Source of the DNA: a virus
Taxonomy: Duplodnaviria; Heunggongvirae; Uroviricota; Caudoviricetes
Virus record (IMG/VR): IMGVR_UViG_3300028988_000007
Coordinates: 1-13,667 of that record
Strand: one strand, 5' to 3'
Length of the DNA stretch: 13,667 nucleotides
Position numbers and translations under genes: made by a program. Numbering within the stretch: position 1 is the stretch's first letter; each line of letters opens with the position of its first letter. Positions 10,811 to 13,575 of this stretch are shown piece by piece. Below the pieces are notes generated by a model, which saw only the letters and a program-made list of their open reading frames with translations, searched no databases and was not told where the DNA came from.

Positions 10811-10902
10811 AGCCTCACCTCCGCAAATAACGGATGGTGTACACGGTTCGGAACGAAGAGGAAAGGTATAGAAGTTACATTAGCGTAAGGCTTGAACATC
10901 TA

Positions 10903-10937
10903 TTCAAAAAGAAAAACGCCAGCGATTATTCTGGCGT
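10903..10937 (-). terminator. Rho-independent terminator-like hairpin with T-tract, between the AppY-like gene and the holin
   Basis: On the minus strand: stem ACGCCAG (10937-10931) / CTGGCGT (10922-10916) with 8-nt loop, followed by TTTTTCTTTTT (10914-10904). Lies about 60 nt downstream of the AppY-like stop (10999) and about 90 nt upstream of the holin ATG (10810). Confidence 0.55.
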
Positions 10938-10998
10938 AGCTGAAAGCATCATACAATTATCAAATACGAAAAATACAAAATCATTAAAACGCATCACG

Positions 10999-11728
10999 TT
11001 ACATCATGTCTTTTTCTAAAAAAAATCTTGATAAATATTGATGGGGAGGAACACCAAAATATCTTCTGAAAACACTTACAAAATATGACGTGTTTTCATA
11101 ACCGCATATCTCAGCAACTTTTCCAACAGAATATAAATTGTAGCTTAATAACCTTTCCGCCATCACCATTCGCTCTTCAAGAATTAATTTACTAAATGAT
11201 AAGCCTTCGTGCTTTAATTTTCTTTTTAACAGACTTTCACTCAGATACAGTCTTGAAGATATATCACAAAGTCTCCATGCTGCAGATATATCCGTGTGAA
11301 TAATAGCCTTAACTTTACTTCCTAAACTATTAAGACATCCAAATAAAAACTTTGCACTATTTTCTCTGAAGATAAGATAGCAAGACATGCAAGTGATATT
11401 TGATTTCTAACAAAATCCACAGTTCTGCCATCACAATTCAAGCATGCAATCAAGTTCTTTAACAATGAAAAATCTTCACATTCCACCATCAAGTATGCCG
11501 GATAAAACCTTCTTACAGAAAAAGGTGAGAGTGTGTTGCTTTTAAAGAAATCATTAACTGTTTTCTCTTCAACATCTACGATCATTACATGATCTATATT
11601 TGATGAAAAAAATCTTTTAAATTGTAATCAATGAGAACAGCACTTCCTTTTTTAAACAAAATATCTTCTTTACCAATTCGGACATCAAACGAGTTCAACA
11701 CCAAAATGATAGAACATATGTATGGCAT
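10999..11728 (-). pseudogene. AraC/XylS-family transcriptional regulator, AppY-like, disrupted by two frameshifts at homopolymer tracts
   Basis: Three consecutive reading-frame segments on the minus strand together resemble full-length E. coli AppY (about 249 aa): 11728-11594 (MPYICSIILVLNSFDVRIGKEDILFKKGSAVLIDYNLKDFFHQI*, my translation), ORF-track 11585-11322 (MIVDVEEKTVNDFFKSN...LACLAILSSEKIVQSF...) and ORF-track 11388-10999 (...WRLCDISSRLYLSESLLKRKLKHEGLSF...ICGYENTSYFVSVFRRYFGVPPHQYL, the AraC HTH domain). Frame changes map to an A7 run (plus strand 11606-11612) and an A5 run (11345-11349), each consistent with a 1-nt deletion. Confidence 0.7.
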
Positions 11729-12079
11729 ATTATCCACCTGATATCATTGGGGTTACACCAGGTAAGTATAGGTGGAAAATCAATATTCGCCAGTTCAACA
11801 ATAAGGAAAATCTCATTGCATCACAAGTATAAAATTATGTATTTAACTCACAAAGACAAATTATTAAACCAATCTGTTATATTATATATAGCTGCGTGGA
11901 ATCATAATATTATATATTTTGACTGGCATGTTTACCAACTTTAAGTTGCATCTCAATGGTTTCTTCAGCGTAAACAGAGTTTTTATACAAACTGACACTC
12001 TGGGTATCATAGTGTAGTTTTTACGATTGTAAATATCCTGCATGCAGGAACTCATCCTTTTGGATGATATCGCATACAA

Positions 12080-13039
12080 TTAATTTACCATCAGTCTTAG
12101 AGCCAGTTCGTCCGGATAGGGATCGAAGTAATTCTGTGTAAGCAAGTAGTCATTAGGATACTCACCCAGATAATGCTTCAGCAGAGTCAACGGCGCAAGA
12201 AGAGGTAATGTGCCAGAACGATAGTTAAGTATAACCTCGCTCAACTCTTTACGCTGGCGTGTACTTAAGTAGTTACTAAAATACCCCTGTATATGCATCA
12301 GCACATTCGTGTGATTTTTACGTGATGCAGGTTTTCTGAGAATCGCCATCAGCTTATCACGATACACCTCAAAGTATGATTCAAGGTCCGCCCACTCGTG
12401 TATTGCAGCCACAAATGGTCCCATATCTTTATAGCCTGCCTGACTATGCGCCAACAACTGAAGCTTATAACGACTATGAAAAGCTAATAACTCTCTTCTT
12501 GATAATTTCTCCTTGTAAAGGTGATTGAGCTCATGCAAAGCAAAAACTCTTTCAACAAAATTCTCACGAAGCACTGGATCATGTAATCGCCCATCCTCTT
12601 CAATCGGTAGCCAGGAAAACTTTTCCATCAAAGTGCTCGTAAATAGTCCCACTCCATCTTTACGACCTCGATTACCATTTTCATCATAGACACGCACGCG
12701 CTCCATGCCACAGCTGGGAGATTTAGCACAAACCACAAACCCCGATACATCCTTTAATTTGTCCATATAAGAACGACTAAACTCTGTCATTCTCTCTGTC
12801 ACATCCTCATTCTGGTCGTGGCTGAAACACATCCGTATATTTCCTTGCGTCGAGCGCACAAGACGTAGAGCAGGACGCGGAACTGGCAGCCCTATAGCCA
12901 TTTCCGGACATACTGGTCTGAATGTTACCCATTCCACTAATTTGTCCATTAAAAAGTCAGCTCTTTTGTGACCACCATCAAAACGAACAGCAGAACCGGC
13001 CAAACAACCGCTGATTCCAATCACAGGTTTTTTTATCAT
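12080..13039 (-). CDS. DUF523/DUF1722 two-domain protein (YbgA-like; N-terminal TudS-like putative Fe-S domain)
   Basis: 319-aa ORF MIKKPVIGISGCLAGSAVRFDGGHKRADF...; the GISGCL...VRFDGGHKR motif and downstream Cys residues match the DUF523 (thiouracil-desulfidase-like) fold, and the C-terminal half resembles DUF1722 as in E. coli YbgA; AT-rich codon usage. Confidence 0.75.
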   Translation of the reverse strand: MIKKPVIGISGCLAGSAVRFDGGHKRADFLMDKLVEWVTFRPVCPEMAIGLPVPRPALRLVRSTQGNIRMCFSHDQNEDVTERMTEFSRSYMDKLKDVSGFVVCAKSPSCGMERVRVYDENGNRGRKDGVGLFTSTLMEKFSWLPIEEDGRLHDPVLRENFVERVFALHELNHLYKEKLSRRELLAFHSRYKLQLLAHSQAGYKDMGPFVAAIHEWADLESYFEVYRDKLMAILRKPASRKNHTNVLMHIQGYFSNYLSTRQRKELSEVILNYRSGTLPLLAPLTLLKHYLGEYPNDYLLTQNYFDPYPDELALRLMVN

Positions 13040-13230
13040 ATTCTCCCCTTGACTAATTCATTAACACATAAACTGTGTAGTGCACGGAATAAATTGCCTT
13101 TCTGGCGTCATCACTGACAATTTTTCTGTTATGGACTATTCCTAATATAGTATGAAAGTTCTTTAAGTGATCGGTCGTAATCATCTATCTTTCATACTTA
13201 CTCTCAACTATCAAAAGTACAGGATTTATT

Positions 13231-13575
13231 ATGAAGTTATGGCCTGTGTTGACTGGCATTGCACTCTCTTTCACTCTTATAGCATGTAAGGCCCCGACAC
13301 CACCTAAAGGTGTGCAGCCGATTACAAATTTTGACGCCAACCGCTACCTCGGAAAATGGTATGAAATAGCTCGCCTCGAGAACCGGTTCGAACGTGGTCT
13401 GGAACAGGTCAGCGCTACTTATGGAAAACGGAACGACGGAGGGATTCGTGTACTTAACCGTGGATACGATCCAACGAAAAATAAATGGAGCGAGAGCGAA
13501 GGTAAAGCATACTTTACTGGAGATACTAAAACTGCAGCGTTGAAGGTTTCGTTTTTTGGCCCCTTCTATGGTTGA
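13231..13575 (+). pseudogene. Blc-like outer-membrane lipocalin lipoprotein, 3'-truncated (114 codons; ends at the junction with an IS-like terminus)
   Basis: AGGA RBS 7 nt upstream of ATG; MKLWPVLTGIALSFTLIACKAPTPPKGVQPITNFDANRYLGKWYEIARLENRFERGLEQVSATYGKRNDGGIRVLNRGYDPTKNKWSESEGKAYFTGDTKTAALKVSFFGPFYG has lipobox LIAC and roughly 60% identity to E. coli Blc as I recall it; Blc continues ...FFGPFYGGYNVIALD... (177 aa) but here the frame stops at TGA 13573-13575, and the following sequence does not encode the Blc C-terminus in any frame. Confidence 0.7.

What the first reader, a model, noticed from the sequence alone, without database searches (positions are those of the whole stretch)
10811..13572. 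AT-rich cargo island occupies the slot upstream of the holin where Q/pR'/tR' is expected
In lambdoid phages the late operon is driven from pR' under Q antitermination, with Q-pR'-tR' directly upstream of S; this is also the classic toxin/moron slot (stx in Stx phages). Here no Q-like ORF is present. Instead there is an AT-rich block (some stretches near 20-25% GC versus well over 50% in the structural genes) with an AppY-like regulator pseudogene, a DUF523/DUF1722 protein and a blc-like lipocalin, ending at an IS terminus. Either this is a moron island inserted between Q and S, or the prophage has been truncated or rearranged by IS activity and is defective for late-gene expression. The DUF523/DUF1722 plus lipocalin pairing next to phage lysis genes has no function I know of and is the most likely place for an undescribed accessory function in this window.
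Basis: partly seen in the sequence, partly recalled or inferred. Interest (0 to 1): 0.65.

Follow-up and report, generated by a model that had tools for sequence, protein, structure and literature searches.

The report
Known phage cargo block upstream of holin
The AT-rich stretch upstream of the phage holin is an ordinary, widespread three-gene cargo block of lambda-like E. coli phages, whose one intact gene here is a near-copy of an already characterised enzyme that removes a sulfur mark from transfer RNA.

Summary
In detail: 10811-13572 is 38% GC (33% in 10811-12079) against 56% in the structural genes. It holds an AraC-family pseudogene, an intact DUF523+DUF1722 gene and a blc lipocalin gene cut at codon 114 by an IS end.

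No Q gene is visible only because the window stops 95 nt into ISEc52, where draft contigs break. In every relative examined, the order is Q – promoter/terminator – blc – DUF523/DUF1722 – araC-like – holin. These relatives include isolated phages (IdasGreatGrand, 1H12, Lambda_2E9), DLP12-like and Qin-like prophages, and a 99.97%-identical prophage in strains PM22 and Ec40743.

The "unknown" gene is 93% identical to RudS_vir of phage 1H12, a published tRNA 4-thiouridine desulfidase, and all seven catalytic or cluster residues are present. blc was already reported as a common lambda moron.

Two smaller points are less well known. rudS sits in 21% of complete E. coli genomes, although the literature says E. 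coli lacks it. The blc–rudS pairing is an ancestral chromosomal pairing in Enterobacteriaceae.

Interest is low.

The parts
10595..10810 (-). Class II (phage 21 S-type) holin. This is the downstream boundary of the island and the first gene of the lysis cassette (endolysin 10098-10595, Rz 9640-10113, Rz1 9699-9881).
   Evidence: Pfam PF04971, E 2e-35. Annotated essD/essQ in relatives. Homology with K-12 DLP12 resumes only 11 nt upstream of this ATG.
10811..10998 (-). Spacer between the araC-like stop codon and the holin start. It contains an intrinsic-terminator-like hairpin at 10937-10916 (ACGCCAGAATAATCGCTGGCGT followed by a T-run) and the holin Shine-Dalgarno sequence.
   Evidence: Terminator scan. 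No promoter-like site was found here. The sequence belongs to the island variant rather than to the conserved S leader.
10999..11728 (-). AraC/XylS-family (YdeO/AppY/GadX-like) regulator pseudogene with two -1 frameshifts in poly-T runs (coding strand), at 11606-11612 and 11345-11349.
   Evidence: Alignment with intact 243-aa genes of GMF054, IdasGreatGrand and Lambda_2E9. PF12833/PF00165 in the intact protein. YdeO is the best NCBIfam model, E 1e-36, below cut-off. 31% identical to AppY. Annotated 'frameshifted' in PM22 and Ec40743.
11729..12079 (.). AT-rich non-coding spacer (down to 21% GC per 100 nt) between rudS and the araC-like gene. It holds the two best promoter-like matches on the minus strand (12033-12006 and 11938-11909).
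   Evidence: Promoter-like sites are not enriched over shuffles, so these are candidates only.
12080..13039 (-). rudS: intact 319-aa TudS(DUF523)-DUF1722 fusion, a tRNA 4-thiouridine desulfidase. It is the only intact island gene in this window.
   Evidence: PF04463 E 4e-40 and PF08349 E 2e-40. 297/319 residues identical to RudS_vir, phage 1H12 gp66. Cys12/Cys44/Cys110, Glu46, Arg55, Ser107 and Ser109 are present (against Tables 1-2 of PMC11417400). N-terminal region matches TudS structure 6Z92. dN/dS 0.11 against the 1H12/2E9 allele.
13040..13230 (.). Divergent rudS/blc intergenic region (191 bp), presumed to carry both promoters. One weak promoter-like match for rudS lies at 13207-13180.
   Evidence: The 43-aa ORF here is not conserved: it has a stop codon in Lambda_2E9. 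No LexA box.
13231..13572 (+). 5' part (codons 1-114 of 174) of a blc outer-membrane lipocalin lipoprotein gene, with lipobox LIAC at residues 16-19. It is truncated by the IS insertion and oriented against late transcription.
   Evidence: PF08212. The intact homologue scores 316 bits against NCBIfam Blc (cut-off 267). It is about 70% identical to E. coli Blc structures 3MBT/1QWD. Breakpoint located.
13573..13667 (-). Inverted-repeat end (TGAAGTGGTCAAC..., the end downstream of the transposase) of an IS3-family ISEc52 element. The transposase genes would lie on the minus strand beyond the window. Inferred 3-bp target duplication GGT.
   Evidence: 100% identity over 95 nt to ISEc52 copies in L002 and L003; 94.9% to IS911 in L005. 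3-bp duplications are seen at other copies.

Best explanation
The region is one copy of a conserved three-gene moron block (blc, rudS, araC-like regulator). In a large family of lambdoid E. coli phages it occupies the exchangeable slot between the Q antiterminator/late promoter and the S21-type lysis cassette.

The Q–pR'–tR' module is not missing. It lies just beyond blc. In this lineage it is separated from the window by an ISEc52 inserted in blc, and the draft contig ends there.

How it most likely works:
1. Inferred from the anatomy and the established Q mechanism. Q loads RNA polymerase at a promoter in the 155-bp Q–blc spacer, and the polymerase reads through the strong terminator there. 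It then runs antisense through blc and sense through rudS and the araC-like gene. It passes the terminator at 10937-10916 and continues into S-R-Rz and the structural genes. rudS is therefore unavoidably part of the late transcript, as stx is in Stx phages.
2. Inferred. In the lysogen the cargo genes use their own promoters in the AT-rich spacers, and the terminator ahead of S insulates the lysis genes.
3. Shown for a 93%-identical protein. RudS is a [4Fe-4S] desulfidase that converts 4-thiouridine in tRNA back to uridine. For the family member RudS_KT this removes the near-UV photosensor and shortens UVA-induced growth delay.
4. By homology. Blc is an outer-membrane lipid-binding lipoprotein, and the regulator belongs to the YdeO/AppY/GadX class that prophages often carry.

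In this particular copy the regulator (two frameshifts) and blc (IS insertion) are dead. Only rudS can be functional.
For: Same gene order Q / blc / rudS / araC-like / holin in every relative examined:
- phage IdasGreatGrand;
- phages Lambda_2E9 and 1H12;
- a DLP12-like prophage;
- a Qin-like prophage of E. coli HS;
- another lambdoid prophage;
- a BL21 remnant;
- the 99.97%-identical PM22/Ec40743 prophage.

Distribution:
- At least 80% of the island is present in about 1000 of 5426 complete E. coli genomes.
- rudS is present in 1136 of 5426.

Exchangeable slot: K-12 DLP12 has an 87.5%-identical Q and a homologous essD. The whole segment from the 3' end of Q to 11 nt before the S start codon is different there and carries nmpC.

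Q–blc spacer: TTGCTG-17-TAACAT, then a TAGAAT repeat, then a 9-bp GC-rich hairpin with a T7 run. It is conserved in both island variants. The fold z-score is -4.0.

Other evidence:
- Terminator ahead of S.
- RudS identity and catalytic residues.
- Published activity of RudS_vir (PMC11417400).
- blc reported as a frequent lambda moron (PMC6969025).
- Purifying selection on all three genes between island variants, dN/dS 0.07-0.27.
- Each gene has its own PHROG family.
Against: - The Q gene and late promoter are not seen for this genome. No complete E. coli genome and no searched metagenome or viral contig carries this exact IS junction.
- The promoter assignment is by consensus only. Promoter-like sites in the island are no more frequent than in shuffled sequence.
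- No expression data were available.
- RudS_vir had lower tRNA activity than other RudS enzymes and the best growth rescue on free 4-thiouracil, so tRNA may not be its only substrate.
- The benefit to phage or host is untested.
Confidence: 0.85

Rival explanations
1. The prophage has been truncated or rearranged by IS activity and is defective for late-gene expression. The island sits where Q/pR' used to be.
For: - An ISEc52 end interrupts blc at 13572/13573.
- The nearest relatives (PM22, Ec40743; 99.97% identical over window 1-13572) carry another ISEc52 between a ylcG fragment and ral. The nin region, P, O, cII, cro, cI and N are missing, so that prophage lineage is very probably defective.
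- Ec40743 has a further ISEc52 between the araC-like gene and essD.
Against: - The island is not a product of rearrangement. It lies between Q and S in isolated phages and in several unrelated prophage backbones.
- Q is retained next to blc even in the IS-damaged relatives.
- A simple IS insertion with a 3-bp duplication is the usual outcome for this IS.
- Whether it blocks Q-modified polymerase is unknown.
Confidence: 0.1
2. The island is host core chromosome flanking a prophage end, not phage cargo.
For: Chromosomal blc–rudS clusters exist in other Enterobacteriaceae.
Against: - Those clusters are only 66-82% identical at protein level, with unrelated intergenic DNA.
- In E. coli the block always lies between Q and the holin inside prophages, and it is in packaged phage genomes.
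- It is absent from K-12.
Confidence: 0.01
3. The block is an undescribed accessory or defence system, in which DUF523/DUF1722 and the lipocalin act together in a phage-specific function.
For: - The pairing is conserved in phages and in 41 of 62 related chromosomal loci.
- All three PHROG families are labelled 'unknown function'.
- The role of RudS in phage biology is not addressed in the papers read.
Against: - No PADLOC match.
- Each protein has a well-supported individual assignment.
- RudS_vir works alone when expressed in E. coli.
- The two genes are divergently transcribed, not an operon.
- In this window, and in BL21, one partner is destroyed while the other persists.
Confidence: 0.05
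4. The phage RudS acts mainly on free thiolated bases or nucleotides (TudS-like salvage or detoxification) rather than on tRNA.
For: Among the RudS enzymes tested, RudS_vir gave the shortest lag on 4-thiouracil. It gave a smaller drop in tRNA s4U despite good solubility (PMC11417400).
Against: - It did lower tRNA s4U.
- It keeps the DUF1722 domain, which the same paper links to tRNA anticodon-arm binding.
- No RudS matched stand-alone TudS in supporting growth on thiouracil.
Confidence: 0.15

Closest known systems
RudS_vir (Escherichia phage 1H12 gp66, H3V29_gp66) and the RudS family of tRNA 4-thiouridine desulfidases (Jamontas et al., NAR 2024, PMC11417400)
   Same: - 319 aa, with the same TudS+DUF1722 architecture.
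- 93% identical.
- Same Cys12/Cys44/Cys110 ligands and the same Glu/Arg/Ser/Ser catalytic set.
- Same genomic position: between blc and the araC-like gene, Q to S.
   Different: - 22 substitutions; a different island allele (about 91% nucleotide identity).
- This copy sits in a prophage with a P27/HK97-type head and a sheathed tail rather than a lambda-like siphovirus.
- Its activity was not measured.
The Q–S cargo slot of lambdoid phages (stx in Stx phages; nmpC between quuD and essD in K-12 DLP12; cold-shock genes in Qin)
   Same: - Foreign, AT-rich genes sit downstream of Q–pR'–tR' and upstream of the holin.
- The sequence switches at the 3' end of Q and just before the S start codon.
- Sense-oriented cargo is necessarily on the late transcript.
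   Different: - The cargo here is blc / rudS / araC-like.
- blc (like nmpC) is antisense to late transcription.
- No tRNA genes or toxin genes.
blc moron of infant-gut lambda phages (Mathieu et al., Nat Commun 2020, PMC6969025)
   Same: It is the same gene, in the same phages (1H12, Lambda_2E9, Lambda_ev series). It was reported there as present in more than 50% of the lambda isolates.
   Different: In this window the gene is cut after codon 114 by ISEc52 and cannot make a complete lipocalin barrel.
Prophage-encoded AraC-like regulators AppY (DLP12), PatE, PsrA and PsrB (EHEC O-islands)
   Same: - Small AraC/XylS proteins with a C-terminal HTH_18 domain, carried as prophage cargo.
- 31% identical to AppY over the full length.
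- The best model is YdeO, an acid-resistance regulator.
   Different: - Not an orthologue of AppY.
- The relationship to PatE, PsrA and PsrB was not tested.
- This copy is a pseudogene with two frameshifts.
- Its targets are unknown.
Chromosomal blc | mlrA-like | transthyretin-like | rudS clusters of Enterobacter, Leclercia and Lelliottia; the adjacent divergent blc–rudS pair of Citrobacter sedlakii; Salmonella ORF319/RudS_ST
   Same: - Divergent blc and rudS.
- Phage Blc is about 80% and phage RudS 66-76% identical to these chromosomal proteins.
- The spacing in C. sedlakii (188 bp) is like that in the phage (191 bp).
   Different: - The phage block lacks the MerR/MlrA-type regulator and the transthyretin-like gene.
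- It has an AraC-type regulator downstream instead.
- The intergenic DNA is not alignable.

Membership tests
RudS (TudS-DUF1722 tRNA s4U desulfidase) | N-terminal TudS/DUF523 (2-thiouracil desulfurase) domain | tested here: met
   PF04463, residues 7-149, E 4e-40, 137.5 bits against a cut-off of 34.7. Matches TudS structure 6Z92, E 2e-4.
RudS (TudS-DUF1722 tRNA s4U desulfidase) | C-terminal DUF1722 domain fused in the same polypeptide | tested here: met
   PF08349, residues 192-309, E 1.9e-40. The YbgA model NF007549 matches residues 160-315.
RudS (TudS-DUF1722 tRNA s4U desulfidase) | Three cysteines that hold the [4Fe-4S] cluster (Cys12/Cys44/Cys110 in RudS_vir and RudS_ST) | tested here: met
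   Cys12 (GISGC), Cys44 (RPVCPE) and Cys110 (SPSCG) are present. Positions are as in Table 1 of PMC11417400.
RudS (TudS-DUF1722 tRNA s4U desulfidase) | Catalytic Glu, Arg and two Ser (E51, R60, S111, S113 in RudS_KT) | tested here: met
   Glu46, Arg55, Ser107 and Ser109 lie at the corresponding offsets from the cysteines (Table 2 of the paper).
RudS (TudS-DUF1722 tRNA s4U desulfidase) | Lowers 4-thiouridine in tRNA | not testable with these tools
   Shown for RudS_vir, which is 93% identical. Not measured for this allele.
Moron (autonomous cargo unit in a phage genome) | Lies between two genes that are neighbours or carry different cargo in related phages | tested here: met
   K-12 DLP12 has homologous Q and essD with nmpC instead. 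Homology stops at Q nucleotide 360 and resumes 11 nt before the S start codon.
Moron (autonomous cargo unit in a phage genome) | Base composition different from the surrounding phage genes | tested here: met
   38.4% GC against 55.6%.
Moron (autonomous cargo unit in a phage genome) | Own promoter and terminator | tested here: inconclusive
   A terminator-like hairpin lies after the araC-like gene (10937-10916). Promoter-like sites are present but no more frequent than in shuffles. No transcript data.
Moron (autonomous cargo unit in a phage genome) | Dispensable for lytic growth and lysogeny | not testable with these tools
   Indirect only: alternative cargo in the same slot, and decayed copies here and in BL21.
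Lambdoid Q–pR'–tR' late control module | Q antiterminator gene immediately upstream of the late promoter | tested here: not met
   Not in the window, which ends in the IS. It is present 155 bp beyond blc in all nine related loci: PF06530, E 2e-51; 87.5% identical to QuuD; distant match to Q21 structures. Its presence in this genome could not be checked.
Lambdoid Q–pR'–tR' late control module | Promoter with a downstream -10-like pause element and an intrinsic terminator, tR' | tested here: inconclusive
   In relatives only: TTGCTG-17-TAACAT, a TAGAAT repeat, and a hairpin with a T-run. These are consensus matches with no functional data.
Bacterial lipocalin Blc | Full Lipocalin_2 barrel with lipoprotein signal and lipobox | tested here: not met
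   The intact homologue passes: NCBIfam 316 bits against a cut-off of 267, lipobox LIAC. The window copy stops after residue 114 of 174.
AraC/XylS regulators of the YdeO/AppY/GadX class | Intact C-terminal double helix-turn-helix (HTH_18) preceded by an N-terminal domain in one reading frame | tested here: not met
   The intact allele has PF12833, E 1e-14. The window copy has two frameshifts that split it into ORFs of 47, 87 and 129 aa.
IS3-family element ISEc52 (IS911-like) | Terminal inverted repeat beginning TGAAGTGG and identity to known copies | tested here: met
   95 of 95 nt identical to the ISEc52 copies of PM22 and Ec40743. 3-bp target duplications at other copies. The rest of the element lies outside the window.

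The most novel reading that the evidence does not exclude
blc and rudS may form a conserved near-UV / photo-oxidative-stress module of Enterobacteriaceae. In chromosomes it lies next to an MlrA-type MerR-family regulator. (From my own knowledge, not tested here: BluR, the repressor of the E. coli blue-light response, belongs to the same MlrA-like group.)

On this reading, lambdoid phages captured the module and placed rudS on the Q-dependent late transcript. A prophage induced by sunlight would then erase the 4-thiouridine photosensor from host tRNA. That would stop UVA-triggered tRNA crosslinking and the stringent response from throttling late protein synthesis.

A corollary is that about one E. 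coli strain in five has a prophage-dependent, altered UVA response and tRNA s4U level, contrary to the statement that E. coli lacks RudS.
Probability: 0.15. Interest if true: 0.55.

Novelty: already known. Interest (0 to 1): 0.22.

Why it matters
As a discovery it matters little. The block is in about a thousand annotated E. coli genomes and in deposited phage genomes. Its lipocalin was reported as a common lambda moron in 2020, and its enzyme was characterised from a sister phage in 2024.

Three by-products are useful:
1. Phage annotation resources still label the gene 'unknown' or 'YbgA family', although it is RudS.
2. Recent papers state that E. coli lacks RudS. Yet 1136 of 5426 complete genomes carry a prophage copy. 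This could make tRNA s4U content, UVA growth delay and solar-disinfection behaviour strain-dependent.
3. The position of rudS on the late transcript, and its ancestral pairing with blc, give a concrete and cheap hypothesis for why a temperate phage carries a tRNA-modification eraser.

Tried and rejected
**Extending past the IS**
- A 288-nt query across the junction found no complete E. coli genome covering it.
- All 24 public contigs read that encode the same 114-aa Blc fragment end in or at the IS.
- Exact-pattern scans for the left junction and for the predicted right junction (CCACTTCA+GGT+blc 3') found nothing in viral or metagenome contigs.
- The look-up tool only accepts proteins from the window or from earlier searches, so a reconstructed IS–blc fusion ORF could not be looked up.

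**A UV/SOS link**
- I thought I saw a LexA box upstream of rudS. On checking, it has three mismatches.
- The pattern search found none in the intergenic region, and matches in the window are at chance level.

**Small ORFs**
- The 43-aa ORF upstream of rudS (13053-13184) is interrupted in Lambda_2E9.
- The 65-aa ORF in the spacer, annotated in IdasGreatGrand, has no support.

**Other negative checks**
- RNA elements: no Rfam match below E = 0.87 and no tRNA genes.
- Defence system: no PADLOC hit.
- Recent capture from Citrobacter: the intergenic DNA is not alignable.
- Literature on the island as a unit: none was found beyond the blc moron note and the RudS_vir experiment.

**Not attempted**
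- Orthology of the regulator to PatE, PsrA or PsrB, because their sequences were not retrieved.

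
Full report
**What is in the window**

Almost all genes are on the minus strand.
- From left to right the window carries tail and head genes: HK97-type capsid, protease, portal, large terminase, P27-type small terminase and an HNH endonuclease.
- Next comes a bor/iss lipoprotein gene on the plus strand.
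- Then comes a lysis cassette of the phage-21 type: Rz/Rz1 9640-10113, endolysin 10098-10595 and holin 10595-10810.

The finding concerns what lies upstream of the holin in the direction of transcription, 10811-13572.

**Check of the observation**

Composition:
- The region is 38.4% GC overall and 32.9% in 10811-12079. The structural genes (window 1-8700) are 55.6% GC.
- Several 100-nt windows fall to 21-25% GC.

Contents:
- An AraC-family gene, 10999-11728 (-), split into three ORFs.
- An intact 319-codon gene with the 2-thiouracil-desulfurase (DUF523) and DUF1722 domains, 12080-13039 (-).
- The first 114 codons of a blc lipocalin gene, 13231-13572 (+).

From 13573 the sequence is the inverted-repeat end of an IS3-family element. 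It is 95/95 identical to ISEc52 copies in two E. coli genomes and 95% identical to IS911. The description is therefore accurate.

The pseudogene results from two single-base deletions in T runs, T8 to T7 and T6 to T5, relative to intact 243-codon alleles. The same frameshifts are annotated in two closed genomes and appear in independent metagenome contigs. They are therefore not a sequencing artefact of this window.

**Why no Q gene is seen**

The window stops 95 nt into the IS. Twenty-four public contigs that encode exactly the same 114-residue Blc fragment were read, and all end in or at this IS. That is the signature of a short-read assembly breaking at a repeat. The absence of Q is a limit of the data, not a feature of the phage.

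**The island in relatives**

Window 1-13572 is 99.97% identical to a prophage in E. coli PM22. With one extra IS it also matches a prophage in Ec40743. In both, blc is complete and a 125-codon Q gene lies 155 bp beyond its stop codon, convergent with it. This Q matches PF06530 at E 2e-51 and is 87.5% identical to QuuD of DLP12; its closest solved relatives are the Q21 structures.

The same order (Q, blc, DUF523/DUF1722, araC-like, holin) is found in:
- the isolated phage IdasGreatGrand, 99% identical over the island;
- eleven lambda-like phage records from infant faeces, including 1H12 and Lambda_2E9, about 89-92% identical;
- a DLP12-like prophage;
- the Qin-like prophage of E. coli HS;
- a further lambdoid prophage;
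- a remnant in BL21.

About 1000 of 5426 complete E. coli genomes hold at least 80% of the island.

In K-12 DLP12, Q and essD are homologous to those of the PM22 copy of this prophage. Everything from the 3' end of Q to 11 nt before the holin start codon is unrelated and carries nmpC. The block is thus one of several alternative cargoes of the well-known Q–S slot.

**Where the late promoter is**

In relatives, the 155-bp spacer between Q and blc contains:
- a promoter-like TTGCTG-17-TAACAT;
- a second -10-like hexamer (TAGAAT) a few bases downstream;
- a 9-bp GC-rich hairpin followed by seven or eight T residues.

This spacer is conserved in both island variants, and the fold z-score is -4.0. 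This is what a Q-dependent late promoter with its pause site and tR' should look like, and it is where established knowledge of lambdoid phages places it. It remains a consensus-based inference.

By contrast, the 188 bp directly upstream of the holin contains a terminator-like hairpin (10937-10916) and no promoter-like site. The cargo is therefore downstream of tR'.
- Q-modified polymerase must cross blc in antisense.
- It must then cross the DUF523/DUF1722 gene and the regulator gene in sense before reaching S.
- In the lysogen, the terminator ahead of S would keep cargo transcription out of the lysis genes.

**What the genes are**

*DUF523/DUF1722 (RudS).* The protein is 297/319 identical to gp66 of phage 1H12. 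That protein is RudS_vir in Jamontas et al. 2024 (PMC11417400). It is one of six TudS–DUF1722 fusions shown to lower 4-thiouridine in E. coli tRNA when overexpressed.
- RudS_vir was soluble, less active on tRNA than the Pseudomonas and Salmonella enzymes, and the best of the RudS set on free 4-thiouracil.
- The window protein has the three cluster cysteines at the published positions (12, 44, 110).
- By motif register it also has the Glu, Arg and two Ser residues whose mutation abolishes activity in RudS_KT.
- In the same paper, overexpression of RudS_KT shortened UVA-induced growth delay.

*Lipocalin (Blc).* The intact form passes the NCBIfam Blc model and is about 70% identical to the solved E. 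coli Blc. Mathieu et al. 2020 (PMC6969025) had already listed blc as a moron in more than half of their lambda isolates.

*Regulator.* It is a YdeO/AppY/GadX-class AraC protein, 31% identical to AppY. Paralogues of 39-53% identity occur in other temperate coliphages. This class includes the prophage regulators PatE, PsrA and PsrB of EHEC. Orthology to those was not tested.

*Selection and other checks.*
- Between the two island variants all three genes show purifying selection (dN/dS 0.11, 0.07 and 0.27), similar to Q, holin and endolysin. In the phage population they are working genes.
- None matches a defence-system model.
- No tRNA gene or known RNA family is present.

**State of this copy**

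Only rudS is intact. The regulator is frameshifted, and blc lacks its last 60 codons. The IS has its transposase on the same strand as the late genes.

Other copies of this IS make 3-bp target duplications, so a simple insertion with a GGT duplication is the likeliest event.

I could not establish whether the late operon is still served by Q in this genome.

Independently of the island, the closest relatives have a second ISEc52 that replaces everything between a ylcG fragment and ral. That segment held the nin region, P, O, cII, cro, cI and N. This prophage lineage is therefore probably defective.

**Two things that are less well known**

*rudS is common in E. coli.* The gene is present in 1136 of 5426 complete E. 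coli genomes, almost always chromosomal. The RudS paper and a 2026 review both state that E. coli lacks RudS. That holds for K-12 but not for the species.

*The lipocalin–RudS pairing is not a phage invention.* RudS homologues of 66-76% identity occur in the chromosomes of 62 other species of Enterobacteriaceae and Pectobacteriaceae.
- In 41 of these, a Blc about 80% identical to the phage Blc lies upstream and divergent.
- Usually an MlrA-type MerR regulator and a transthyretin-like gene lie in between.
- In two Citrobacter species the two genes are directly adjacent, with the same spacing as in the phage.
- The intergenic DNA is not alignable, so the capture is not recent.

This conserved synteny, together with the light-responsive operons described for other RudS genes, allows the speculative reading in the novel case. 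That reading treats the pair as a near-UV protection module that the phage also expresses late.

**Verdict**

The claim of an undescribed function is superseded by published work on the same genes from sister phages.

Novelty: already known. Interest is low. A modest open question remains about what a tRNA 4-thiouridine eraser does for a temperate phage.

Noticed in passing
window 12080-13039; E. coli complete genomes: rudS is present in 1136 of 5426 complete E. coli genomes (1188 of 1190 places are chromosomal). These include commensal strain HS (intact) and BL21 (147-nt remnant). Both the RudS paper and a 2026 review say E. coli lacks RudS.
   Followed up: partly
L019-L082 (species-representative genomes), e.g. 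L028 3021-5960, L026 4292-5960: Chromosomal RudS homologues in Enterobacter, Leclercia, Lelliottia, Kluyvera and Citrobacter are preceded by a divergent Blc gene in 41 of 62 loci. In 36 of them an MlrA-type MerR regulator and a transthyretin/HIUase-like gene lie in between. In two Citrobacter species blc and rudS are directly adjacent, as in the phage.
   Followed up: partly
L002 15565-17346 and L003 18809-20590 (PM22 and Ec40743, same prophage as the window): An ISEc52 sits between a ylcG fragment next to Q and ral. The nin genes, P, O, cII, cro, cI and N are absent. The prophage lineage that the window belongs to is therefore probably a defective remnant with intact late genes.
   Followed up: partly
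window 8800-9640, gene 9315-9608 (+): A second AT-rich (41% GC) cargo lies just downstream of Rz: a Bor/Iss serum-resistance lipoprotein gene on the opposite strand (PF06291, E 9e-31).
   Followed up: no
window 10098-10810: The lysis genes look like the phage-21 pinholin/SAR-endolysin type. The holin matches the P21 S family. The endolysin has a hydrophobic N-terminal stretch ([18 protein letters not shown]) before the lysozyme domain.
   Followed up: no
window 8440-8790 (-): An HNH endonuclease gene lies immediately upstream of the P27-family small terminase subunit. This is the usual HNH–terminase pairing of HK97-like cos phages.
   Followed up: no
L071 and L076 (contigs JARKOR010000151.1 and JARKOR010000135.1): Two short contigs binned into a 'Candidatus Nanosynbacter' MAG carry this E. 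coli phage island at 93-100% protein identity (Q, blc, rudS, araC-like, holin, endolysin). This is almost certainly binning contamination.
   Followed up: no
L008 10001-10342 (GCA_016697785.1): A contig with a different island allele (98.2% identical, regulator intact, different flanking genes) ends at exactly the nucleotide where ISEc52 is inserted in the window. Either the same site was hit independently or the insertion spread by recombination.
   Followed up: no
window 11345-11349 and 11606-11612: Both inactivating mutations of the araC-like gene are single-base losses in homopolymer T runs (T6 and T8 in the intact gene). Such tracts are slippage-prone, so this regulator may be lost repeatedly. 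The frequency of broken alleles across genomes was not counted.
   Followed up: no
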